NCBI RefSeq assembly: GCF_009914755.1
Contig: NC_060927.1
Reading direction: 5' to 3' (one strand)
Length of the DNA: 64,000 nucleotides
DNA from: the human T2T-CHM13v2.0 reference genome, Homo sapiens
The notes beneath the pieces were generated by a model. The model saw only the letters and a program-made list of their open reading frames with translations. It was not told where the DNA came from and did not search any database. The position numbers were made by a program, and so were the translations under genes. Below, piece after piece: positions 2,821 through 51,093 of the stretch (positions are counted from its first letter, which is position 1; every line of letters starts with the position of its first letter).

Positions 2821-4143
2821 GAATTTCCCTATTGATGCCAAAGATCAATTAGTTTCATAGGGTCCGGCCATTTTCTACAAAGATCATGTGATTTGAGAGG
2901 GCAATGTGAGAATGTTTTTATTTTGTAGGATAATTTATCCAAAATTAAGCAATTCCTATTACTCATTCAAATTTGGGGATAAACAGATTACAGAAGCAGG
3001 TTGCCAGGACAGAGCACAGTTGCAGAAGCCCCAAAAAAGAGGTGGTGATCAGGACCAGGTCACACACCTTGACTTGGGTCAGGCAACTGAGGGTTAAGCT
3101 AATGAGATGAAGAAGGGGCAGGAAAGTTGGACCATGAAGGAGGAAGAAGCAGAGGCTCCTGAAGCACAGAGTCTTGACACGAATTGTCCAGTCCCCTGAG
3201 GAGATAAGTAGGATCCCATATTGGCCAGCCAAAGCTGAGACCTACTTTATGTCTTCAACCTCCACATCTCCGAAATGTTCTTAACCTCAAAATGGACCTT
3301 TCTAGATTAAACTGGGATTTCATCAAGTCAAAGCGTATATTCTCTCTAGACAATGGGTCTCCCCTACAACCTAAAAAGAAAGAAGCCAACAGAAAAAGAC
3401 AGATGTAAAAGGGTGACTGACAATAACAGTATTAGGGACATGACTAAACACTGCTCATCTCTCCAGTGGTTACAAAACTGATCAGGTGGCTTGACGTAAG
3501 CTCGCCCTCAGAATACAAGCTCTCTATTTAAAGAGAGATAAGCTGATTAGAGTTAGTATTATTACTTTTTTCCTCTACAAGGTAAATTGCCCTCTTTCTT
3601 TTCTTTAGCATCTGTAAATTAGGGACTCATTCTAGGAAAGAAGCCTTGGCATGTCTTTTTAGCCTAATTTAATATCAAAGCATTGTCCTTAGTTGATAAC
3701 AATCACCTCAGCAATCTATATCAATGTCTTATCATGTCAGTGCCTTAATTTCTAAGTCAATGAGGATTATATTCTCTACTCATTTAGTATATAAATATAC
3801 TCCATAACATAACTAGAACAGTGTCTGCCAGACTGTTGGTAATTGATAAACACGGATGCTGCTGCCATCAAATTTGTTAGGCATTTGCTTATCTTTTAAA
3901 AGTTGGAGTTATATCCCTGTCAGGTAAGTGCTAGACTGAAAATTGGCATAGCAATACAAAAGCATATCATTGACCTCCTAAGTGAAATTTTCATCCTTAA
4001 TCATTTTCCTCTTATAATTTTTCAGATAATATTTCTTTCACTCTTTTCTTTATGCTCCTTTGGCTCTCAAAACATCCCCCTATCATGGGGCCAAGATGTT
4101 GGGGAAATTTCACGAATCAAAAAGAATCCTATTAGTATAAACT

Positions 4144-4929: not shown

Positions 4930-7900
4930 TAAACAAACTTTTCTATTGAGAGATGCAGTTTTTGATAACAAATGAGGAAGGATAGAGACACATTCTGATC
5001 TTTGGAGCAGAGAAAAATACTAGTGGGAACCTAAATAACCTTCTATTGATCAGTTAAACCAGGGTTTCTTTTGTAAGAATAAACTTTTCTCTCCCTAAAT
5101 TAGAGTTTGTATATTTCTAGGGGAATTAATTTTCCACTTTGTTCACAGATGTTTAGTATAAAGCACAGTTCATCCTCTCCAAATATAATTTAAGCCAAAA
5201 TAAATTAATCCAAACCTAAGTTCATCAGAAGGTAAGATTGTTAGGCCTTGTTCTAGTTAATTGAGTGGGTCTGGCTATTGTACATACAACTGATAAGCAC
5301 CAAGACAAATGGGTGAGTTTTATCAAAATTTGTGAGCTTTTGGATAAATATTACGAAAGGGAAAGGAAAAGGAAGACAAAAAGAAACTCAATTTACTCCG
5401 AAGGCATTTTAAATGATTTGGATGCCACTAGATTAGGAAACTGCCTTTTCATGCTTCTAATAGAGATTTTATTTTTCCTCCAGTAGGGCAGAATGAAAAA
5501 AAAAGCCCTCCAAAATCTATGAATGGTAGCACCCCTGTTCCAAGAGTTTTCAGAGGAAAAAAATACTGCATGCTGCAGTAACAGTTTCTGTTTCATTAAT
5601 GAGAAGAACTGTGTATTGGAAAGCTCAGTTTGAAATCTGGCAAGAAATCAAGGTATGGTTTTTCAGTGATTGCCTTTGGTAGTTCATCTGTTTAACATAT
5701 GTAGTAATGGCCTTCCTTCTGCTGGCCATGTGCCTTAGGTTAAAAGTAAGGGTTTGTCATGTGTCCTTACTATCCACGATATCTAACGGTTGGAATTATG
5801 ACATGATAAATCATGAATCTTGAAAGCTTTTACTAATTGAAGTTGAACGAAAAGTGAGAGAAAGCTTACCTCTGACTGGTAATTTAGAATGAGTAGGGAC
5901 TGCAAAATGTGAAGATAGTCAAGCCAAGTTATTTAGGACACAAATACTCACTCTAGAATCCTGTTAGGCAGCACATACCATAAAAATGAAGAAATAACAG
6001 CCAGCTCTTCAGTTTTTTTGTACTGTAGAGCTGTCTTGAAGATAAGAAAACAAGCTCCCACAATAAAGGGTGCAATGATAAAATATTTAGTATGGAAATA
6101 ATTTAGAACATTATCCCATCTGGACTCAGGCATTTTGTTGTATGTGCAAGAGTTATAATACTTAGCATTTTTCATTACAGTGTTAGTGTTTCATAGATTA
6201 GCTATGCAGAAAATGTTTTAATCACCAGAAAGTTACCATGATGTAACCGATATGCACTTGCCACAACACATTGCTCAGACATCTAGATTAAAGGATTTTT
6301 CATATTTCAGGAGACTAGAAAAGGAGTTTTCAGGGAGTAAATTCCACTGGATAAATCATTGAAAATGGTTGACAAAGAGGATGGAAGTATAGAAAAGGAA
6401 ATGAGAAAAATTACAAAAATTGAGAAAACATTTTTTTAACCAATAATCTTTCAGCAACTCCTGAGCATTCAATTTCAACTATAAGCTGAGTTAAGACTCA
6501 AACTACCCATCATTTCACTCAAAACAGCAATGTATTATTATTTTTCTCTCTGCAAAGAAGGAAGAAAAATGGGGGTCATCACATAACACAATGATTTCTT
6601 GATAGAATTTCTCTCTTCAAAGTAGTTTCCATGTTGTGTTAATATATTTCAGCCAAAGATAATTTTTTAAGAGCTGGAGGATAAATAAAAATCAGAGAAA
6701 ACATGCTAATAAATATAGAATAGGAGAAATCAAAAGTCTACAGATTATTTACAGAAAGACTGGCCACTGAAAAATTGTTAGAACTGTTTGGGAAATAATA
6801 CGATACAATTCTGGAACAAATGTGTCTCTTCCCCAGCAAAGCTAACAGACCTGTTTCTAAGAAGCCAAGATTCCCTTTCTATCTCCAGAAACTATATAAA
6901 CTAGATTTTCATGAAATTCCAAATATAAACTTATCATCTCTCCTGTTATTCCCATTAGCTATCACACAGCTCCAGAAATTCCAAACTACAGCAAACTGCC
7001 CCTAGCACCAAAATTTGCCAAACTATGTATTATTCTTTTCACATTTGAGAATACATTCATTGTAATTGTGTCACCATTTCATCAAAGCGCTAATTAAAAC
7101 ATTTAAAAAAGTCGATCTTTCTTTTTTTTCTGAATATGAAATAACAATTTTTATTTTCTTAGGCTTCATTTAAAAATTGTTTATTTTAGCATTAAGCAGC
7201 TATAAATCTAATTATTTAAGTATATATTTAAGAAAAAATGACTTATTGGTTAGTTCTGTCAATCAATTTTTAATTCAATACTTTAAATATATTTTACGGC
7301 AGAGTTATATTAATAAAGTATGCTAAGAATTAATCTCAAAATAAATCTGTGTTATCTCTGAAACCATCTATACTGGCCATTCTGATCCTGTAAAATGCTC
7401 AGTATTTTTATAGCTACAAAAAAAAAAAAAATAGAAATCTAGTCCCATGTGACTGACCTCTCAAAGGATGCTGGCATTTCTATTCCATTTCACTCGTTGG
7501 GATCTTGTTACGTAAAAGTTAAATCACAACATCGTATTGGAGCCCATTTGATATAAATAGAAGTTCTAATATTTCACCATTAATTTTGATAAGATAATGT
7601 TTAAAACATAATTCATAATTAAGCTTTAGAATAGAGTCATTGTTTTATTTAGGATACATGTTTGTATAGCTGTTTTTTATTATCAATATTTCTGTTACTT
7701 TTAACAACAATCCAACTGTGAAATTTAAAAGCTAGCACTGTGAGTAAATTGTTTTGCTTCATAGGTTATGTTTTAAAATTGTTAATTTTCTTGGTACATA
7801 AGATCTTATTTATTGTATATCATGTTATCTATAAATGGGTTTTACAGCAAAAGTAGGTTATTTTGAAAATGTTTCTCTAGCAATGAAAAAGCCTTATCAT

Positions 7901-9889
7901 GGATGTGAGACTAATTTTGTTCACATCCTTACTGGCAGATTCTTCTTGCCCAGGTAAGAAGCCAGGCCAAGAATGCTAGCAGTCCAGGACTGAATGTGTT
8001 GAGTCAAATGTCTGAGTGGACAGAGAGTGTGTGAGGCAAATCAAGCCTGATACTTGAAAGGCTGTTGCCAAGAGGTCAAGATCACAGCCAGGACACAACA
8101 GTCAATTCACAGGGCTGGGGAAAGAAGTCAGAGCCAGAAGGCAAGCTGGGTGAGAAGAAAAAGGTCCCAGGATATCTGAGGACTTGGCCTGAGACCATGG
8201 CAGGCAGACAATGTATTGACCTTGTCAAGTTATTTTTAGCATGAAGTCCTTACCTCCTTGGGCAGGGCTGTCAAGGTTTTATTGAGGAGAGTGCTCATGG
8301 TCACTACCTGCACCTCCAGAGGAGAGGAGGAGAGGCAAAGAAATGGATGGTAGCTGTGGATCTAGAGGCTTTGTGCTTTCTTTTATGCTCTTGGACCACA
8401 CATTAGGAAACTGTGCAAAGAGAGCAAGGACTCATGCTTTTTCTTTTTTCCTCCTCCTCTTTTCTTCAAATTGCCCATTCTTTACCTCAGTAAAAGCAAA
8501 ATAAATAACTGAATGAAAGAATGAATAAATAAGAAATGTATGTATGTATTTCTCTCTTTAAGATTTCAATCTGCTCCCATAAGTCACCCCTAATTGAGGA
8601 CATTTCCAGAGAAGGCTAATTAAAAACTTTTTTCAAGTTGCTGGGGGAAAAAGAAAAGTGATGAAGGATTGGGCAGATTGGCTAATGGAGTTGAACTGTA
8701 TGATTTGGTTCAGTGAAATCAGTTTTTCTCAGAAGCTCATCAAGACAACCCTGGATAGAACTCAGTTTTATAAAAATACAATGCTTTTCACCAAAATAAA
8801 TTCACTTAGATAATTCAAGCGCACACATAATTCTAAGTGTTGGAGGAATTCTTGAAGAATGCTTAGACATTGAAAAAAATGTATTTTGTCTCACACAACA
8901 CATGATATGTGCATTTCTAGCACTGCAATGCCATAATTTCAGTAGTTATTTGCTTTTCTTTAAAACTTCAGAAAAATTCCACTATGATCTAACTGTCAAA
9001 ACATAATTTCAACACTGGTAAGAGTTTCCTTTCTGGCTGACTTGTCAATCTGAGTTAATAAATGTTTCCTCAGCCTGGAAGTTTAATTAACTTAAGTTGA
9101 ATAGATCTGAATGAGAGAAATTATTTGTATTTGCTTATTAACTTTTTTTTCAAGATAAGACAGAATTAGAAAGGAAAGAGACAAGTAAGAGACACATGTC
9201 TTATTTCCCCTTTTAAGTTACAGATTTATAGGGAGAGAAATTTTGTGAGCTTCTCCTTTTAAGGATATTTTTATCAGTTAGTCCAGATGGATCAATATGA
9301 CGAACCAATCAATACGATTTTGATGAAATTCTTCTCTATCTTTGAAGGTACTATCATCACAGATACTCTGTTTCTATTGAAGAATATATCCTGTTAAGAT
9401 TTCTGAGACGCTAATAAAAAAAGTGTCACCAAAATGATGATTTATAAATTCTGATGTAAATATCACTGAAACATGCCAATGAATAAATGCCAAGTAGTCT
9501 ACTGTGTATGTTGCAAGATGTATGTTACATAGCACACTTAAAATGATAGATTACGCATCACTCAAAATGAGATAAAGACTACTTCTTTAACTACTTTTAT
9601 GTCTCATTATTTTTTGCTGTTTTAAAATTTCCTTCATATAGAGTGGATCTCTCAAGTTAGTCCAACAATCTAGCTTGCTAGTTTTAGAGATCCTTATTCT
9701 AAACATCATTACTGTTGTATGAATCAGCTATCAGGTACAACAATGTATTATCTCAAAGGCAAACATAAATAATTACAAAATAAAACAAATGCATGACAAA
9801 AAATTAAAAGGTTCAAGATAACAGTAGCCTCCTACATTTGTTTAGTCCTTCTTAATCTTCAAATAAATTTTGTATCCACTTCTCTGTTT

Positions 9890-42084: not shown

Positions 42085-42720
42085 GTCAGTCAGGGTCCAA
42101 TCAAAAAAGAGAAACTGGCATCGTAATTTGGACAGGGGAAATTTAATGTTAACTGTAACAAGGGATTGCTTAATGACGATTGTATAGTAAGAAATAAAGA
42201 CATCTCCAAATAATATATGAATAGCAGATATAAGGAGCAGTCATGCCTACCTAGGGCTGAAATAATGTGCTTAGAGAAAAGAGCTCACCCTTCCCAGGGC
42301 TGAGCTCTAGACCTTGTTGGACACGGTTTGACCGTGGCTCACTGAATGGTAGAGAGGTTGCCATGAGGCATCACAGGTGGAACTTGCTAACCCTCTAGGG
42401 TGCCACTAGAAGTGGTTCATGGGAAAATGTCTCACTAGAGGCACAATGTTACAAAACTGCTTTAGGGGTGTGTTGAGAGAGGCCACTAGTCTGTGGGCAT
42501 TTCTGGACACCATGCACTGCACAAGCTGGGCATCTTTCGAAGAAGCTATCTGCACCGCAGGAGTCTGGTCAGTGAACATCCAAGACCAAGAAGACAGACC
42601 TCTTCCTCCTGCGATGTCTCTCCAGTGCCCCCTGCTGACAAAGGTTAACATCATGCCAGCTTATAAAGAAGGATATGTAAAGGGTCTAGATCCATTGTCA
42701 CAAGATGGGAATGGTCAAGA
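42085..42720 (-). mobile_element. Ancient ERVL LTR (LTR40/LTR50/LTR52-like)
   Basis: tgtcagtcagggtccaatca...; ctctccagtgccccctgctgacaaaggttaacatcatgccagc. Confidence 0.6.
42623..42640 (-). promoter_or_regulatory. Candidate CTCF motif inside the ERVL LTR
   Basis: Minus strand reads tgtcagcagggggcactg, close to the CTCF core CCASYAGRKGGCRS. Confidence 0.45.
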
Positions 42721-43794
42721 GTGTCCTGCCCTGCAGTTTTACCAGTGCCCTTTGGAGGGGGGACTGCCTCTGCTTGCATTAGTGCTGAGCACAAATAGCA
42801 GGACTCTTTGATCCAGATTCTGAAGTGTCAGGGAGGAGAGGGAGAGGTGTGGTAGGTTTGAGATGCTCTCCTGGAATACAGTGGGTATAATCAAAAGAGT
42901 CCCATCCTACAAGGCTGTCTCTTCCAAGTTTAGAATATGACTGAAAAGAGCAGACTTGTCTTGGGACTATTTTGTCTGAACCCATTGGTACTTCTAGCTT
43001 GCAGACTGCTCCTGTGCCCAGACCGGCATATATAGGAGGCAAACAAAACAAAATAAAGGAAACAAACCAAAAATGGGGAACTTATCACTGAGTCATCCTG
43101 TAAGTCTTGAGGCTGCTAGACAGTCCTACCTCTCTCCCTACTTCTCTTTCTTCAAAGTCTCCTAATGCTTGGCTTATGTGTTCTGTCCAGACTTTATATT
43201 CATAATTAATGCAGGAGAAATAAGGTGAAATGAGTTTACTCCATTTTCTTTTGAACCAGAAACTTTCCATGTCCTAAGTTTAAACTGAATTATTTGCTAG
43301 AAACACGTCAAGGTTTATTTCACATGTACGTGTTTCTGAGCCACAGTGTTACATGATCAGCTGGCTCAGGAAGATGCCTTCTAAAAAAATGCTTATCCTG
43401 ATCCACAGGCTCACTTACTTGATAAAGCTGGAGATGGGTCCTAATGCAAACATTAGAGAGACACTTATGTTATTATGAAGGGCAAGCTCTACTAAATACT
43501 GGAGCCGACTTGAGAAGACAACTTGAATTGTCCTAAACTGCCAGCTGGTGGTGGCAAATGCCCATTAGGCATCATTGATTCTTACCTTTCTGGCACATCA
43601 AGGGACCTGGAATGCCTTGGCACTCTTTTCTGCTATACCATCATTTCTGCTCTTGCTAGGTTAGCTATCATCTTCCTCTATGTTTTTTTAATATAGATAA
43701 CATCTCTTTGATTCCTCCTTTCACCATTTTTCCCATCTGTGAGGATTACAGAGAAGTGGGATATTCCACCTCTGCCTCAAAATTCTAATTCACA

Positions 43795-43985
43795 TTAATA
43801 ATAATGATCATAATAAATAGTAACAGTAACTTTCTATCATTTCAGAACACCTACTATGTGGCAGGCCTTATGTTAGAGGCCTTAATTGCATTATTGATCA
43901 TCCTCCCTATGATTTGTTACTTGACAGATGAAGAAAATTAAATGGTACAGCTGAGATTAGAAACCTAATGTCTGAGTCCAAATCT
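43795..43985 (-). mobile_element. MIR fragment running continuously across the outer edge of the left inverted repeat
   Basis: taataataat...gaacacctactatgtggcaggcc...ttgacagatgaagaaaatta...cagctgagattagaaacc. Confidence 0.7.
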
Positions 43986-44558
43986 CATCTTCTTTTCCCA
44001 AAAAAAAACCCTTTATCTGAATCCCACTACCACCATCACCACATCTGTACCACCCCTTTTGCCTGTACTTTTAGGCACACCTCACAGTATTTACATTTCA
44101 GTTTTCTCTACTAAGCAAGACTGAAAGCTCCTTGATAGCAATGAATTATCTTAAAACACCTACCTAACACAGGATCCTGTGTTAGGATTGGGTCACCAGC
44201 TGATGATTTTTATAGCTGCCAATTTAGAAGTTGGCCGTCTCTGAAAACTGGCTTAGCAGAGAGATTGAAACAATTTATCTAGAGAGTCACAAATTCAGCC
44301 GATGACCAGCTGAGTGGAAGTGATGCTCAGTGAATAATGAGGCTAATCTGACTGATGATCAAGATTGAGTCATGCATGCATATGAGCACCCAACTTGAAA
44401 TGAGGTATCACTGTACGCATTAATTTATAACTACATATGAAGAAAAGGAGACAAGTCTCATAAACCCAAGTGCTGGCCTTTCAAACACACACATTTCATT
44501 CAGAGACTCAAATTTGACAATGATACCTGATAAAGGCTCACATCAGTCATATCACAGC
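43889..44558 (+). repeat. Inverted repeat, left arm (670 bp; ancestral copy)
   Basis: Reverse complement of 48788-49458 with 2 substitutions (44451, 44472) and a 1-bp indel (C3 vs C4 near 44010). Confidence 0.98.
44163..44186. repeat. Perfect 24-bp palindrome cctaacacaggatcctgtgttagg (second copy at 49160-49183)
   Basis: Self-reverse-complementary, no loop. Confidence 0.97.
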
Positions 44559-45807
44559 CTCCATCCTGATTACAAAGTGCATACTGTCCATTTCTCTGAA
44601 TAGGATGCCATGTTATCAAAAGATGATAAATGTGCTTGCAAACAGGTAGGGCTAAAAAAATGCTTGCAATATTTCTTTGTGGTTTTGCAACAACAAACAT
44701 CTTGACTGAATTTCCTATCTGCTGGGAAGTAAAAAGCAAAAGGCTTTAATGATCAGGAAAGTTCAAATGTAAAATATAAAAATGAAAGAATCTGGGCATT
44801 GGGACAGACATTAGGTCACATCTAGTACGACCACAATCCAGAGCTGGAAGTTGCTCCAAAATATTCCTAGCAACCAATCACATAGCCTGTATTAGAATTC
44901 CTCCAAAGTCAGGAAAATATCTAGAGTGCTCTATTTGATAGAATGTTTATTTGTTCATTGATTCACTCATATATTTGTATGATGACTATTCATATCATAC
45001 TTTTTTTTAAACTGGCTAGGACCATGCAAAGCATTAGGAAAATAGCTATGAACAAGATACATATTCTTGAAGAACTTCTATTCTACTGGAAGTGGCAGAC
45101 AATGGCAAAACCGAAAAATAAATGATTTACAAATGTAATGCAGGGTCCCACATGTGGTATCAAAAGCAAGTTCTTATTTATATTGAATCTAATAAGTTCC
45201 TCTGTATTTTTCACTGATTAGCTCTGCTATATACTTTCACGCCATTAGAATAAGGCTTTTCATTCCTCTACACTGTAACACACCAGATATTTTAGGACAA
45301 CTCGCACTTTACCCTCAAGCTTTCCAGGAAAAATGCCTCCAGTGTTTTTTCTAACTCTTTAACATTCCATAAAATATTGTGGCCTTTCATTTGCTACTCT
45401 GATCCTACATTGTAGTGGGTTTTTTTTTCTAAATGCAGTTCACAATTAGTTACTTTTGCTTATTATCACTTTTGTTAGAATTAATTATATGGCCCCAATA
45501 TAAATGTTAGAGGGGCTCAAACATGTAGGGGAATAATAGATATTTGGTAAGCGCTGTCTCTACTTCAAATTACAAATCTTATCTAACATCATGATGGTAG
45601 GTCTAATAACACTATAATCTTCCTCATTGTCAATCCTATGTATTTACTGATGCTTCCAAATGCAATCACACACCATATAATATACTCATGCATAACATTA
45701 ATATAGTCATAAAATGGAGAAAATTTGATTGAGGAATGAGAATCAAACATACTTGCTGAAAATATAATACACATAGCTAGATCACAACCTTCCCTAACAG
45801 AAGCAAC

Positions 45808-46068
45808 ATGCTTAGCACTCAGGATCAGTCCTCTGAAGCTGGATTTGCTGACGTCACATCTTGGTTCCAGCTAAATCTCTATCAGATGTGTAACTTTGGG
45901 CAAGTACCTAACTTCTGTGTTCCTTTGTACTATATCTTTATTCACAACATGAAATTAAAAATCTTTGTTGAACTTTTGCTAGAATTTAATGAATCAATTC
46001 ATGTAAAACATCAGAATGCCTAACTTGTACTATGTGCTACAAATGTGTAAGCTATTGTTACTATTATA
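45808..46068 (+). mobile_element. MIR
   Basis: atgtgtaactttgggcaagtacctaacttctgtgttcctt...catgtaaaacatcagaatgcc...gctattgttactatta. Confidence 0.8.
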
Positions 46069-46450
46069 AGAATGTGCAATGCAAATGAAATTTCTTTAGT
46101 TGTTAAAATCAAGCCAGTTTTCCTCAAGAGCTTCCACAATGCTATATTGGAAGAGGATGGGTGGACGTATTTGAAAATTGAACTTACATATTTACATCGT
46201 CACACTCTTTCCTGGTTGAATAGTCCCTTTTGGATATATTTTTTTTTAACTATTTGAAACAGGGATAAAATTATATGTCTCGTTCCTTTCTTGTGCTTGA
46301 TCTACCTCTTCCTTTTCCCTGCCATGTACTTCAATGAGGATTACAATTGTTGATAAGATTTCTTCTAATCTTGCAGTAAAGGCAAAAATGGAAACACAAC
46401 TCTTATCAGGAAAAGGAGGAAGCATGCCAGCGTTTTATATTGAATCTAAT

Positions 46451-46602
46451 AAGCTACACACAGACACACAGACACACACACACACACATACACTTGGGTA
46501 AAGCCTTCATTAAATTACCATACACCACAGAGATTCTAAATAACTGTATATGTGACTTTCATAATGCTAATGTTGAACTATCAGTTGAGGTGCCCAAAAG
46601 CA
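46451..46602 (+). repeat. ~150-bp diverged direct duplication of 50052-50188
   Basis: aagctacac(CA-rich)...ttcattaaattac...agagattctaaata...ttcataatgct.atgttgaact...gaggtgcccaaaagca shared; the ORF-track peptides 46440 and 50036 are visibly paralogous. Confidence 0.9.
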
Positions 46603-48266
46603 TGCCAGTTCCACCAGAAGCTAATATTAATTTAGCTTTTCTAGTGGCCACATGTGTCTACATCTCTGGAGTAGAATCTTTTACTACTCTCTCATGAAAG
46701 CAAAATTCTTAATACTGTTCTAGTGAATTTGACTCTCTCTGTGAGAAACCATGTGTATCCTCCCAATCATCCTGAATCTCAGCTTTCTGTCCATCCATTG
46801 TAATAGCTCTGTAGAAACAGGATAGAAATGGCATTAAAAAAATGGCAACTGGAAGAGACTTAGGCCCACTGGTCAGTTTGCTACTTTAGTCTTGGCTATT
46901 TTTTTCTTAGGCCAGAGTTTTTAAAGCATGAATAAATCTAGTCAGTTTCAGCTCTCTGGAAGGAAAGTTTCAGCATTTATTTGTTTAACTTTCCAAAGCA
47001 GTCCAAAAGCATTACCTGAAGGTAGAACTTAGAATTGGATTTCTAGTCCCAGAGGATACCATTGTTGCCGCTAGAGTCAGTCTAAAGCCCTAGCAGGTAA
47101 CGAGCACATTTGCAGTTAGAGTCTATTAATAAACTGATGAAAGCTCACTGGTTAACAGCCGAAGAATGCCATTTAATGCTCTCTTTTGCTTTTAATGGAC
47201 TGAAACCTGTTAAAATGCTGCTAAATAATAAGGCAAATTTTTCTGGCAGTTGATAGACTAACAGAAACACACACACACTAAGTAGAGGGAATGATTCCAA
47301 TAAGCTCTGCACCAAAAGCAGCTGCAACGTAGCAAAGTTAGAGTCTACACGGTCCAGGGAGCCCCAAAGAAAGACTGGAGATAGAACTCAAGATGTTCCA
47401 TTCAGATAGAACTTCTATGATTACATTATCAACTTTCCTGGGGCTATTAAATCAGTGGAGCAAAAAATAGGCACATTTGGTCCATAGACAGAGAAAGCTG
47501 GGTATAGCAAAGAGAGGATTTAAATGGCACAGCAGATGTCTCAGGGCTCTCGTATCAGGTGCATGCTCTAAAGGGCTCTTCTGAGGGCTCTAATGCAGAA
47601 AATGGCTTATTGAGCACAAAAATGAAAGAAGTTAGGGGATAGAGTTTTAAAGACTTTCCTCATTCTTTAACTTCCCAGATGGGTTATTTCTATCTATTTT
47701 TAGACATGTGATGTCAAACCAACCAATTGATGCAGTCATTTCAGTGAGATTTTGGCTTTTGTGACACCTGTCTGGATTCAACTTCACTTATCAACACTAG
47801 TGTTTTTCCAGCTAGAGGCATTCATTTATCTGCCTCATATCTGCCCCATCCTGTGCTACAGGTTGCCCTTGATGGGCAATGGGTTATGGACCTCTAGAAG
47901 TCTAGGAAGTTCCTGGTTCCAGACCTCCAGCACATTGTGAAGCTCCTGGTTGGGTCAGAATGTGGCCTAATATGAAGGGCATACCAATCTTCTGGTTATG
48001 GAGACCTCTTTCTGACTTCCTTCTTTGTCTGGACCTGAACACAACCTTCTTCTGACCACTTGAGAGGCTACCATTCATCCTTTACATAAGTTCCTAAAAT
48101 TCTTTTGCTTCAAACACATGGCTCTGGTTTGAAGCAAACACATAGCTTAAACCTTATATAAATCTGAATTTAGCCTCTGCTTTCCTTAGCTATCATTATC
48201 AACATGTCTTTCCTATTGTCCCAGTTTTTCCTTTGCTCTCCAACTCTTGTTGTCCTGACTCATCTC

Positions 48267-48451
48267 TTTTGTATTTTTTATATTTTTATTTATTTATACT
48301 TTTAGAGCTGAGGTGTCTAACTCTGCCACTAAGGCTGGATTGCAGTGGTGCAATCATAGCTCACTGCAGCCACAAACTCCTAGGCTCAAGCAATCCTCCT
48401 ACCTCAGCCTCCTGAGTAGTTGGGGCAACAGGTGTGTGTCACCACGTCTGG
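48267..48451 (-). mobile_element. FRAM / AluJ right monomer
   Basis: gcaatcatagctcactgcagcc...ggctcaagcaatcctcctacctcagcctcc. Confidence 0.85.
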
Positions 48452-48509
48452 CTCTTCTTTTGCTCTTGCTGTTATTCCAATCCAAAAAAAAATTTTCAAA
48501 TAAAAAATA

Positions 48510-48790
48510 TCATGATGCTAGGTTTAATTCCCACCTCACGTGCTCTTCTTACAATACAATGTGACTGTCACTCTATCATCATCAGATGGAATCTATCCCC
48601 TACCCCTTTATGCCTGTCTCAACCAATAGAGTATGATGAGAGGGTGTTGTGACTTTACAGTAAAAGTCATAAAAGGAAATACAGCTTCAGCCTAGCTGTC
48701 TTTTTGTAACTCAGATGTGATATTGTGAAAAAGCCTAGGCAATATGTATGGAGAGGTCACTAGTGGGTACTCTGGCAGACAGCCCCAGCT
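48510..48790 (+). mobile_element. MaLR LTR (MLT1G/H-like), 5' half
   Basis: aaccaatagagtatgatg...gtcataaaaggaaatacagcttcagcctagct...ctctggcagacagccccagctg, interrupted by the right repeat arm. Confidence 0.75.
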
Positions 48791-49458
48791 GTGATATGAC
48801 TGATGTGAGCCTTTATCAGGTATCATTGTCAAATTTGAGTCTCTGAATGAAATGTGTGTGTTTGAAAGGCCAGTACTTGGGTTTATGAGACTTGGCTCCT
48901 TTTCTTCATATGTAGTTATAAATTAATGCGTACAGTGATACCTCATTTCAAGTTGGGTGCTCATATGCATGCATGACTCAATCTTGATCATCAGTCAGAT
49001 TAGCCTCATTATTCACTGAGCATCACTTCCACTCAGCTGGTCATCGGCTGAATTTGTGACTCTCTAGATAAATTGTTTCAATCTCTCTGCTAAGCCAGTT
49101 TTCAGAGACGGCCAACTTCTAAATTGGCAGCTATAAAAATCATCAGCTGGTGACCCAATCCTAACACAGGATCCTGTGTTAGGTAGGTGTTTTAAGATAA
49201 TTCATTGCTATCAAGGAGCTTTCAGTCTTGCTTAGTAGAGAAAACTGAAATGTAAATACTGTGAGGTGTGCCTAAAAGTACAGGCAAAAGGGGTGGTACA
49301 GATGTGGTGATGGTGGTAGTGGGATTCAGATAAAGGGGTTTTTTTTTGGGAAAAGAAGATGAGATTTGGACTCAGACATTAGGTTTCTAATCTCAGCTGT
49401 ACCATTTAATTTTCTTCATCTGTCAAGTAACAAATCATAGGGAGGATGATCAATAATG
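48788..49458 (-). repeat. Inverted repeat, right arm (671 bp; derived copy inserted into MLT1)
   Basis: Reverse complement of 43889-44558, ~99.6% identical. Confidence 0.98.
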
Positions 49459-49690
49459 GGCAGCATCAACAGCTTGACATAAGTCAGGAAGGCTTTGAGA
49501 TGACTCTACACAAACTGCCATTTAACTATAACATAAAAGAAACACCCCCTATTCCCCATCTAAGAAAAAAACCCTGCCTACTTAATCACAGTTAACCACC
49601 AGAATCATTAAAGATATTAATAATAAATGATAGAGTTTTTTCACTACCAAGTTTGAGTTGGTTTGTCTGCATACACAGATAACTGGAACA
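49459..49690 (+). mobile_element. MaLR LTR (MLT1G/H-like), 3' half
   Basis: cagcatcaacagcttgacat...taataaatga...caagtttgagttggtttgt...agataactggaaca (typical MLT1 3' end). Confidence 0.75.
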
Positions 49691-49726
49691 ATCATAAATA
49701 GCTTAATATTTGGAGGTATCTAAATT

Positions 49727-49922
49727 AGAGATTTACAAACTATGGCCAAAGTAGGCTTGCTGCCTGTTTTGGTAAAGAAACTTTGATTGGAATACAGCCA
49801 TGCTCATTCATTTACATGTTGCCAATGGTTGCTGTCATGCAAGTGTCAGAATTGAATAGTTATGACAGAGGCTAAAATACTTACTACATGATCCCTTGCA
49901 GAAAAAATAATTGCTAAACACT
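49727..49922. mobile_element. MER58A-like hAT-Charlie MITE
   Basis: caaactatggcc...gctgcctgttttggtaaag...ttggaatacagccatgctcattcatttac. Confidence 0.8.
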
Positions 49923-50609
49923 ACGTAATAGCCAACTGGATGACTTCTCTTTTTCTACTTTTGACAGTGGATATTTACCATGCTGGAACCTAAAGTACTT
50001 GTATCCTATCCAGCTATGTAAAATTTTACTTTTATTTGCACACTAAAGGTAAAGCTACACACACACAGACACACATACACACACATTTAGATAAAGCTTT
50101 CATTAAATTACAACATACCATAGAGATTCTAAATACCATATATGTAATTTTTCATAATGCTGATGTTGAACTGAGGTGCCCAAAAGCAAATACACTCACT
50201 GACCCAACCAGGAAGTGAAACATTATAATAAATGTTTTATTTTTCTTTTTGCAATAAATAAAAAGATGGCTGATACAATCAGAAACTCCTTGTGCAGAAG
50301 CTTACATTGAGTAGGATTTTGATGAGAATAAAGCAAAGTCTTTCTAAGGTTTTTAAGTAATGACAAATATTCTTAAAAACCAATAGCTTAAAAATCAATA
50401 GCTAAATAACCAATTATTAAAAACCAATAGCTAAATTGAATCAACTTGATGACAAAGTGCCCACAAATTGAATGGGTTTGCTTTACGGATTCTAAATGGT
50501 TTTTTATAAACAAACAAAAACAAACAAACAAGAAACAAGACCAAAAAAAAAAAAAAAACTTTGTCAATATACTCCCATTTGATTTCTTTTACTACTCTTC
50601 GTATTACTA

Positions 50610-51093
<484 letters not shown>

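What the first reader, a model, noticed from the sequence alone, without database searches (positions are those of the whole stretch)
43889..49458. Invertible 4.2-kb cassette flanked by 670-bp, 99.6%-identical inverted repeats
Seen: 43889-44558 is the reverse complement of 48788-49458 with only three differences (44451, 44472 and a 1-bp indel near 44010), leaving ~440 bp of uninterrupted identity. The spacer is 4229 bp. The arms are mostly unique sequence, not two copies of one transposon. Established: closely spaced, highly identical inverted repeats drive recurrent NAHR inversions and gene conversion. Inference: this segment toggles orientation in the population. Its size resembles a catalogued human inversion that I recall at 2q22.1 (InvFEST HsInv0040); that recollection is unverified, so the inversion itself may already be known.
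Basis: partly seen in the sequence, partly recalled or inferred. Interest (0 to 1): 0.85.

Follow-up and report, generated by a model that had tools for sequence, protein, structure and literature searches.

The report
Small inverted duplication in ZNF385D intron
Two almost identical 670-base copies of a unique sequence face each other across 4.2 kb inside an intron of human ZNF385D; they could in principle flip the piece between them, but the inversion catalogues checked show only one orientation, so this is a real but ordinary structure.

Summary
Arms 43889-44558 and 48788-49458 are reverse complements, 668 of 671 aligned positions identical, with a 4229-bp spacer and a 442-bp perfect tract. 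The arm occurs only twice in the T2T genome, so it is not a transposon family.

HsInv0040 is real, but it lies on chr2 (3589-bp spacer, 755/756-bp arms). It is a different locus with the same architecture.

Three inversion catalogues contain no call at the chr3 locus:
- the T2T-based 41-sample callset;
- the HGSVC3 PAV tables on CHM13 and GRCh38;
- a catalogue of 612 repeat-flanked candidates.

HsInv0040 is called in HGSVC3, so this class is detectable there.

My best reading is a young or conversion-homogenised inverted low-copy duplication. By eye, the right arm is the derived copy. It is NAHR-competent but, if it flips at all, the flipped form is rare: under about 2% frequency if the 130 haplotypes I recall for HGSVC3 are right. 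Both arms lie in one intron and could pair as a 668-bp RNA duplex. No other human haplotypes or ape genomes were available, so orientation polymorphism and ancestry remain untested directly.

The parts
43889..44558 (+). Left arm of the inverted duplication (670 bp). Probably the parental copy.
   Evidence: Searches give the alignment. One search shows only two copies in the genome. By eye (against a MIR consensus recalled from memory, not a tool result), an old MIR-like SINE runs without a break across the outer edge at 43889.
48788..49458 (-). Right arm (671 bp), the reverse complement of the left arm. Probably the derived copy.
   Evidence: The sequence outside 49458 shows no continuation of the MIR-like element (by eye). 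The flank 49459-49718 is single-copy.
44559..48787 (.). Spacer (4229 bp), the segment that an arm-to-arm exchange would invert. Non-coding intronic sequence.
   Evidence: the only full-length match in the genome is itself; no stop-free frame longer than 105 aa across 43500-49900. Hub annotation: no exon of ZNF385D lies in the window.
44009..44450 (.). Longest perfectly identical tract between the arms (442 bp). Its twin in the right arm is 48896-49337.
43826..43999 (+). MIR-like old SINE that spans the outer boundary of the left arm (approximate limits).
   Evidence: Read by eye against a recalled consensus. A single-sequence nhmmer search of 43780-44010 against the window plus 29 other loci found only itself and the right arm, so no tool confirms the family.
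44163..44186 (.). Perfect 24-nt palindrome inside the arm. Its twin is at 49160-49183.
   Evidence: a 24/24 plus/minus match. Its meaning is unknown.
48261..48476 (-). Alu-like fragment inside the spacer, about 310 bp from the right arm.
   Evidence: 3230 and 3298 first-look candidates, with scored copies mostly 77-88% identical over this stretch only. Metazoa_SRP-like hit at 48308-48452 on the minus strand, below the gathering score.

Best explanation
This is a small inverted low-copy duplication, too short to count as a segmental duplication, inside an intron of ZNF385D.

Origin (inferred). A 670-bp stretch of unique sequence, beginning inside an old MIR-like SINE, was copied in reverse orientation 4.2 kb downstream by a single break-repair event. 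That event was either an inversion with a staggered break, which leaves the duplicated stretch at both ends of the inverted piece, or an inverted duplicative insertion.

Identity (inferred). The 99.6% identity reflects youth, about 1.5-3 million years if there has been no gene conversion, and/or homogenisation by conversion between the arms.

Behaviour. The 442-bp perfect tract makes arm-to-arm homologous exchange possible, and that would invert the 4229-bp spacer. In present-day humans the cassette nevertheless appears to sit in one orientation. Flips, if they occur, are rare events rather than a common toggling polymorphism.

Shown: the anatomy, the copy number, and the absence from the catalogues. 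Inferred: which arm is derived, the mode of origin, and the low flip rate.
For: 1. Anatomy: 668/671 identity, sharp ends, 4229-bp spacer.
2. Two copies only in 3.1 Gb. At the sensitivity of the genome search, the flanks next to all four junctions are single-copy: 43300-43888, 44559-45000, about 48477-48787 and 49459-49718.
3. No coding potential: no stop-free frame longer than 105 aa.
4. The catalogues show no second orientation.
   - In Table S1 of the T2T-based callset (373 inverted regions, 41 samples, PAV plus Strand-seq plus Bionano, T2T v1.1/v2.0 coordinates), the first two chr3 entries shown are 21152526 and 26318368. No number starts with 2150, and all three that start with 2149 belong to chr22.
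   - In HGSVC3 tables 37 and 38, no identifier starts with chr3-21, while chr3-26318368-INV-2101 and chr3-26315756-INV-2108 are present.
   - The 612-candidate catalogue merges 1528 calls from five long-read, Strand-seq and optical-mapping studies of 195 individuals with InvFEST paired-end predictions. It has no ZNF385D entry and no chr3 coordinates at the expected hg38 place.
5. Positive control: the HsInv0040 locus, with the same architecture, is a 'pass' call on both references in HGSVC3. I read the counts 31/30/4 as genotype classes on CHM13.
6. In the 45-inversion study, haplotypes cluster by orientation for only three of the 24 NAHR inversions. Two of these, HsInv0040 and HsInv0061, are listed with repeats of 0.8 and 0.7 kb.
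7. My own arithmetic: 2 substitutions in 670 bp give 1.5-3.0 Myr (95% range 0.2-10.8). Zero of 130 haplotypes gives a frequency below 2.3% and a flip rate below about 1.5e-5 per generation. This assumes neutrality, Ne = 10,000 and full detection. The figure of 65 samples (130 haplotypes) for HGSVC3 is recalled, not read in a call.
Against: - I saw only one haplotype (CHM13). All evidence on orientation in other people is indirect, from absence in callsets.
- PAV tables are filtered callsets and could miss or drop a call. The HGSVC3 supplement is cut in storage, although the chr3 rows of both inversion tables are visibly present.
- The expected hg38 position used for the 612-candidate table rests on a T2T-hg38 offset of 2.6-4.3 kb. 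The 2.6-kb figure comes. The 4.3-kb figure comes from recalled gene coordinates.
- One of the three '2149' hits in that table was not displayed.
- The call that the right arm is derived rests on reading a MIR-like element by eye. nhmmer gave no independent support.
- A 442-bp perfect tract exceeds what I recall as the minimal length for efficient homologous exchange in mammals, so low-frequency or recurrent flips are quite possible.
Confidence: 0.6

Rival explanations
1. One reading: a recurrently toggling NAHR inversion polymorphism. Exchange within the arms flips the 4.2-kb spacer back and forth, and both orientations segregate in humans, at a frequency or in populations that the catalogues checked did not capture.
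For: - Arms at 99.6% identity with a 442-bp perfect tract.
- The same architecture as the validated polymorphic inversion HsInv0040.
- 21 of 24 NAHR inversions in PMC6748972 show mixed haplotypes, consistent with recurrence. One Y-linked case flips at 5.35e-5 per generation.
- With a flip rate of 1e-6 to 5e-6 per generation, my estimate gives a 35-80% chance of seeing no polymorphism in 130 haplotypes. Rare toggling is therefore not excluded.
Against: - No call in three catalogues, while the HsInv0040 control is called in HGSVC3.
- Two of the three NAHR inversions with a unique origin in PMC6748972 have repeats under 1 kb.
- No paper in the library's main texts links ZNF385D with a human inversion: 0 papers for three terms, and 12 papers for two terms, none on this by title and abstract start.
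Confidence: 0.25
2. A footprint rather than a driver. The inverted repeat was created by one inversion of the spacer through a staggered double-strand break, on the human or African-ape lineage, and that inversion is now fixed. The arms mark past breakpoints. This is a sharper version of the origin step in the best explanation and can be true alongside it.
For: - The arms sit exactly at the two ends of the segment, as the staggered-break model predicts.
- Homology ends sharply.
- I saw no direct repeat flanking the right arm or the cassette when reading.
- One outer junction looks native and the other truncated (by eye).
- Low divergence between the arms.
- The model is in print for Drosophila: PMC1885836 holds 'staggered', 'inverted duplications' and 'inversion breakpoints' in its abstract (search listing only). 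Its content is recalled.
- Short breakpoint duplications of 12 and 88 bp are listed for the human non-homologous inversions HsInv0098 and HsInv0097.
Against: - A 670-bp stagger is much longer than the 12-88 bp duplications listed for human cases.
- The strand-asymmetry test does not show a reversed spacer. Its GC skew (-0.069) has the same sign as the rest of the window (-0.024), and if flipped it would exceed all 50 control tiles. Its AT skew (-0.023 against +0.049) points the other way. The result is inconclusive.
- No outgroup was available.
Confidence: 0.3
3. An assembly artefact: one arm, or the orientation of the spacer, is an error in T2T-CHM13.
For: None specific. Inverted repeats can confuse assemblers in general.
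Against: - The arms differ at three positions, so they are distinct copies.
- From general knowledge rather than a call: the whole structure is 5.6 kb, shorter than single HiFi or nanopore reads.
- The T2T-based study reports no misorientations in T2T-CHM13 across 41 samples.
- An error on either reference should show up as a homozygous inversion call on that reference. None is listed on CHM13 or GRCh38.
Confidence: 0.02
4. A mobile element: a composite or foldback-type transposon with 670-bp terminal inverted repeats.
For: Terminal inverted repeats flank an internal segment.
Against: - The arm and the spacer are each single-locus in 3.1 Gb.
- No transposase-sized open frame: the longest is 105 aa.
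- I saw no direct repeat at the cassette ends when reading.
- By eye, the left arm continues an older SINE across its outer edge.
Confidence: 0.02

Closest known systems
HsInv0040 (InvFEST), 2q22.1: a polymorphic inversion mediated by repeats of about 0.75 kb
   Same: Near-identical inverted arms of unique sequence under 1 kb (755/756 bp at 99.9% in the paper; 733 bp with 1 mismatch in T2T) flank a 3589-bp segment. Here the values are 670/671 bp at 99.6% and 4229 bp.
   Different: - It lies on a different chromosome and has no shared sequence apart from a 91-bp repeat hit.
- HsInv0040 has both orientations at high frequency. I read the counts 31/30/4 in HGSVC3 as genotype classes.
- The chr3 cassette has no call in any catalogue checked.
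Segmental duplications / inverted low-copy repeats that mediate NAHR
   Same: A low-copy, high-identity, intrachromosomal inverted pair made of non-transposon sequence.
   Different: At 670 bp it is below the 1-kb lower length used for inverted duplication pairs taken from the UCSC track, as quoted in PMC13629690. It would therefore not have entered that paper's set of 319 inverted pairs of 1-50 kb.
Inverted duplications left at inversion breakpoints by staggered breaks (Ranz et al. 2007, PMC1885836; content recalled, listing seen)
   Same: The duplicated stretch sits in opposite orientation at the two ends of the segment, with sharp junctions.
   Different: That any inversion took place is not shown here. 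The duplicated length is far above the 12-88 bp listed for human non-homologous inversions.
Long intramolecular dsRNA from inverted repeats in one transcript (ADAR substrates; PMC7006430, listing only)
   Same: Both arms lie in one intron of ZNF385D according to the hub annotation. They can pair over 668 bp, with a duplex energy of -1270 kcal/mol against -159 and -185 for each arm folded alone.
   Different: From recall, typical editing substrates are inverted Alu pairs of about 300 bp at about 80-85% identity. This pair is longer, nearly perfect and non-Alu. No expression or editing data were available here.

Membership tests
Repeat-mediated (NAHR) polymorphic inversion | Inverted repeats flank the segment | tested here: met
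   arms 43889-44558 and 48788-49458, with a 4229-bp spacer.
Repeat-mediated (NAHR) polymorphic inversion | High identity, with an uninterrupted tract long enough for homologous exchange | tested here: met
   A 442-bp perfect tract and 668/671 identity overall. The threshold of a few hundred bp is recalled, not taken from a call.
Repeat-mediated (NAHR) polymorphic inversion | Both orientations observed among individuals | tested here: not met
   No call in the T2T-based 41-sample callset, in HGSVC3 tables 37 and 38, or in the 612-candidate catalogue. The HsInv0040 control is present in HGSVC3. This is an indirect test made from published tables only.
Repeat-mediated (NAHR) polymorphic inversion | Breakpoints of the exchange map inside the repeats | not testable with these tools
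   This needs an inverted haplotype, and none is available.
HsInv0040 itself | Same genomic locus | tested here: not met
   HsInv0040 lies at chr2:138.72 Mb in the paper's coordinates and chr2:138,692,473 in T2T. The window is chr3:21.45-21.52 Mb.
Segmental duplication (operational definition) | At least 90% identity and not made entirely of transposable elements | tested here: met
   99.6% identity and two copies in the genome. The definition is as quoted in PMC13629690.
Segmental duplication (operational definition) | At least 1 kb long | tested here: not met
   670/671 bp.
Transposon with terminal inverted repeats | Multiple copies, target-site duplication, transposase gene | tested here: not met
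   A single locus. I saw no direct repeat flanking the cassette when reading. The longest open frame is 105 aa.
Staggered-break inversion footprint | An outgroup carries one arm only, with the spacer in the opposite orientation | not testable with these tools
   No primate genome is held. Paper reading closed before the ape-genome supplement could be seen. The strand-skew proxy was inconclusive.
Long intramolecular dsRNA substrate | Both arms in one transcription unit and able to pair | tested here: met
   The hub annotation places the whole window inside ZNF385D, with no exon in it. The duplex pairs 668 bp at -1270 kcal/mol.
Long intramolecular dsRNA substrate | A-to-I editing clusters or small RNAs from the arms | not testable with these tools
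   No RNA data are held.

The most novel reading that the evidence does not exclude
The cassette is a very young, possibly human-lineage-specific inversion-plus-duplication event in the ZNF385D intron. Its arms still exchange at a low rate, below about 1.5e-5 per generation, so rare carriers of the flipped form exist. Whenever the gene is transcribed, the arms also fold into a 668-bp, nearly perfect intronic dsRNA, an unusually long non-Alu substrate for ADAR editing.
Probability: 0.2. Interest if true: 0.35.

Novelty: new member of a known kind. Interest (0 to 1): 0.2.

Why it matters
If the cassette did flip, it would add one more small repeat-mediated inversion to the human list. It lies in an intron of ZNF385D, a gene named in a genome-wide study of reading disability and language impairment (PMC3904347, title and listing only). 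It holds no exon, so any effect would be regulatory at most.

Its practical value is as a test case. It is a near twin of HsInv0040 in architecture, yet no polymorphism has been called there. That contrast bears on how repeat length, identity and spacing set the inversion rate.

As it stands this is an ordinary structural feature of the reference genome. It should not be reported as an invertible switch.

Tried and rejected
1. Transposon-continuity test for the ancestral arrangement. I searched the genome with the flanks of all four junctions. All are single-copy for at least 260 bp next to the junction, so no high-copy element crosses a junction and the test could not be run.

2. Tool confirmation of the MIR-like element across 43889. 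A single-sequence nhmmer search against the window plus 29 other loci found only the query itself and the right arm. Rfam found nothing there. The reading stays by eye.

3. Strand-composition test of spacer orientation. GC skew favours the present orientation as long-standing, while AT skew leans the other way. The control tiles overlap. Inconclusive.

4. Rfam scan of 42500-51000 at E up to 1. It gave only Alu-related SRP and microRNA-like hits below gathering scores, and none in the arms.

5. Open frames: nothing above 105 aa. No protein search was run.

6. Literature. 'ZNF385D' + 'inversion' + 'inverted repeats' gave 0 papers. 'ZNF385D' + 'inversion' gave 12 papers, none on a human inversion at this gene by title and abstract start.

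7. Things that were not available.
   - The 2022 Cell paper on recurrent inversions was not held under the DOI or the PMC id I tried. Its calls are among those merged into the 612-candidate catalogue.
   - Paper reading closed before the ape-genome supplement could be opened.
   - The loci for could not be cut out.

Full report
**Observation**

The repeat finder gives two adjoining inverted pairs offset by one base. BLASTN of 43600-44900 against the reverse complement of 48450-49750 joins them into one alignment of 671 columns with 668 identities, two mismatches and one gap, E = 0.0.

- The arms are 43889-44558 (670 bp) and 48788-49458 (671 bp).
- The differences are substitutions at 44451 and 44472 and one extra A in the run at 44000-44008.
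- The longest perfect tract is 442 bp, and the spacer is 4229 bp.
- Homology stops abruptly at all four edges.
- In the whole window, the other 20 of 21 inverted pairs of at least 150 nt are only 76-87% complementary; I take them to be Alu-type, which I did not check.

**What the pieces are**

The whole arm finds exactly two places in the 3.1-Gb genome that holds the window: the two arms, at chr3:21,495,889-21,496,558 and 21,500,788-21,501,458. The spacer's only full-length match is itself. Its only high-copy part is an Alu-like fragment at about 48261-48476.

At the sensitivity of the genome search, the flanks next to all four junctions are single-copy:
- 43300-43888;
- 44559-45000;
- about 48477-48787;
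- 49459-49718, beyond which an old interspersed repeat begins.

There is no open frame above 105 aa and no Rfam hit in the arms. A transposon reading fails on copy number, coding capacity and, by my reading, the lack of a direct repeat at the cassette ends.

**Which arm is the copy**

Read by eye against a MIR consensus that I recall (not a tool result), an old MIR-like SINE runs from about 43826 to 43999. It continues without a break across the outer edge of the left arm at 43889. The right arm carries only the part from the edge inward, and the sequence outside 49458 does not continue the element.

This makes the left arm the parental copy and the right arm the derived one. I could not confirm the family with a tool. 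nhmmer with this stretch against the window and 29 other loci found only itself and the right arm.

**How it arose**

Two models fit.

- An inversion with a staggered break duplicates the stretch between the nicks and leaves it, inverted, at both ends of the flipped piece. This model is in print for Drosophila (PMC1885836). I saw only the search listing, and its content is recalled.
- An inverted duplicative insertion leaves the spacer untouched.

They differ in which inner junction is native, and they would be told apart at once by an ape outgroup. I had none. The transposon-continuity test could not be run because every junction flank is single-copy.

A strand-composition proxy was inconclusive. 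The spacer's GC skew is -0.069 against -0.024 for the rest of the window, and if flipped it would exceed all 50 control tiles. Its AT skew is -0.023 against +0.049.

**Age**

Two substitutions in 670 bp give 1.5-3.0 Myr since duplication or last homogenisation, with a 95% range of 0.2-10.8 Myr across the two mutation rates used. The two substitutions lie 21 bp apart. The chance of that for two random sites is 0.06, which is a weak hint of one event or of conversion elsewhere in the arm. The pair is either young or kept alike by gene conversion.

**Is it a known or polymorphic inversion?**

- PMC6748972 (supplementary file 10) lists HsInv0040 at chr2:138720715-138725814, which I take to be hg18. 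It has a 3589-bp inverted segment and 755/756-bp repeats at 99.9%, described as 'unique sequence + several TEs'. It is listed as NAHR with a unique origin.
- In the window's own genome I measured 733-bp arms with one mismatch and a 3589-bp spacer at chr2:138.69 Mb.
- There is no similarity to the chr3 locus beyond a 91-bp repeat hit.
- The only chr3 inversions in that 45-inversion study are at 41.3 and 109.2 Mb.

I then looked for the chr3 locus in three catalogues through their supplementary tables.

1. *Porubsky et al. 2023* (PMC10150506) called 373 inverted regions in 41 samples against T2T-CHM13 with PAV, Strand-seq and Bionano, in v1.1/v2.0 coordinates (passages). In its tables, the first two chr3 entries shown are 21152526 and 26318368. 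No number begins with 2150, and the three that begin with 2149 are all chr22.
2. *HGSVC3* (PMC12350169), tables 37 and 38, give PAV inversions on CHM13 and on GRCh38. No identifier begins with chr3-21, although chr3-26318368-INV-2101 and chr3-26315756-INV-2108 are present. The chr3 blocks of both tables therefore lie in the stored part of the file.
3. *Moreira-Pinhal et al. 2026* (PMC13629690; abstract and sections 4 and 13 read) list 612 repeat-flanked candidates. These were merged from 1528 calls of five studies on 195 individuals, from InvFEST paired-end predictions, and from inverted duplication pairs of 1-50 kb. Their tables hold no ZNF385D entry and no chr3 coordinates at the expected hg38 place.

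The expected hg38 place rests on a T2T-hg38 offset of 2.6 kb, measured at 26.3 Mb, up to about 4.3 kb from recalled gene coordinates. One of the three '2149' hits in that table was not displayed. An entry for this locus would have produced about four such numbers.

As a positive control, the HsInv0040 locus is a 'pass' call on both references in HGSVC3: chr2-138692473-INV-4953 and chr2-138246734-INV-5009. I read the counts 31/30/4 as genotype classes on CHM13. This class of small, repeat-flanked inversion is therefore detectable in that data.

**What follows**

If 130 haplotypes show no flipped copy, the flipped form is below 2.3% (95% bound). The figure of 65 HGSVC3 samples is recalled, not read in a call. 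Under neutrality with Ne = 10,000 and full detection, the flip rate is below about 1.5e-5 per generation. At 1e-6 to 5e-6 per generation, seeing nothing would be unremarkable, with probability 0.35-0.80.

In PMC6748972, haplotypes cluster by orientation, indicating a unique origin, for only three of the 24 NAHR inversions: HsInv0040, HsInv0061 and HsInv1051. The first two are listed with repeats of 0.8 and 0.7 kb. A Y-linked inversion is estimated to flip at 5.35e-5 per generation.

A sub-kilobase repeat is thus expected to flip rarely. The cassette is NAHR-competent in principle, but the claim that it toggles in the population is not supported by what I could check.

**Other readings**

- *Assembly error* is very unlikely. 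The arms differ at three sites. The structure is shorter than single long reads (general knowledge). The T2T-based study reports no misorientation in CHM13. Neither reference yields a call.
- *Long intronic dsRNA.* Both arms lie in one intron of ZNF385D according to the hub annotation, so the pre-mRNA could form a 668-bp duplex. Its energy is -1270 kcal/mol, against -159 and -185 for each arm alone. It is longer and more perfect than the inverted Alu pairs that I recall as the usual ADAR substrates. Long near-perfect dsRNAs are the subject of PMC7006430 (listing only). No RNA data were available.

**Limits**

- I saw one haplotype.
- All population evidence is absence from published tables.
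- PDF supplements could not be read.
- The HGSVC3 file is cut in storage.
- The 2022 Cell inversion paper was not held.
- Paper reading closed before the ape-genome supplement could be opened.
- No main-text paper in the library links ZNF385D with a human inversion.

**Verdict**

This is a new, uncatalogued member of a well-known kind, a small inverted low-copy repeat, of low interest unless direct genotyping or ape comparison shows a flip.

Noticed in passing
window 46464-46542 and 50057-50135: A direct repeat of 79 nt at 85% identity, made of an (AC)n run plus about 50 nt of adjoining sequence. One copy lies inside the spacer and one lies 600 bp beyond the right arm. These are probably two tails of one interspersed-repeat family. 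It has no evident link to the cassette.
   Followed up: no
window 44163-44186 (twin at 49160-49183): A perfect 24-nt palindrome lies inside each arm. Its origin and meaning are unknown. It could be the abutting ends of an old element.
   Followed up: no
window 49719-49900: An old interspersed repeat starts about 260 bp outside the right arm. The genome search gave 672 first-look candidates, and the 40 places scored (one of them the query itself) include copies at 74-86% identity. The family was not named by any tool.
   Followed up: partly
window 50600-50955: An Alu-like element, with Metazoa_SRP and mir-1268-like hits below gathering scores, ends in a perfect (AAAT)12 array at 50899-50946.
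   Followed up: no
window 48324-48386: An Rfam mir-3135-like hit (48.8 bits, gathering score 80) lies inside the Alu-like fragment of the spacer. It probably only reflects the Alu origin of that microRNA family.
   Followed up: no
L035 (G000:C2:138689500-138699499), arms 2927-3659 and 7249-7981: In CHM13 the HsInv0040 repeats are 733 bp with a single mismatch and a 3589-bp spacer. I read the HGSVC3 counts for this call as 31 homozygous reference, 30 heterozygous and 4 homozygous inverted relative to CHM13.
   Followed up: yes
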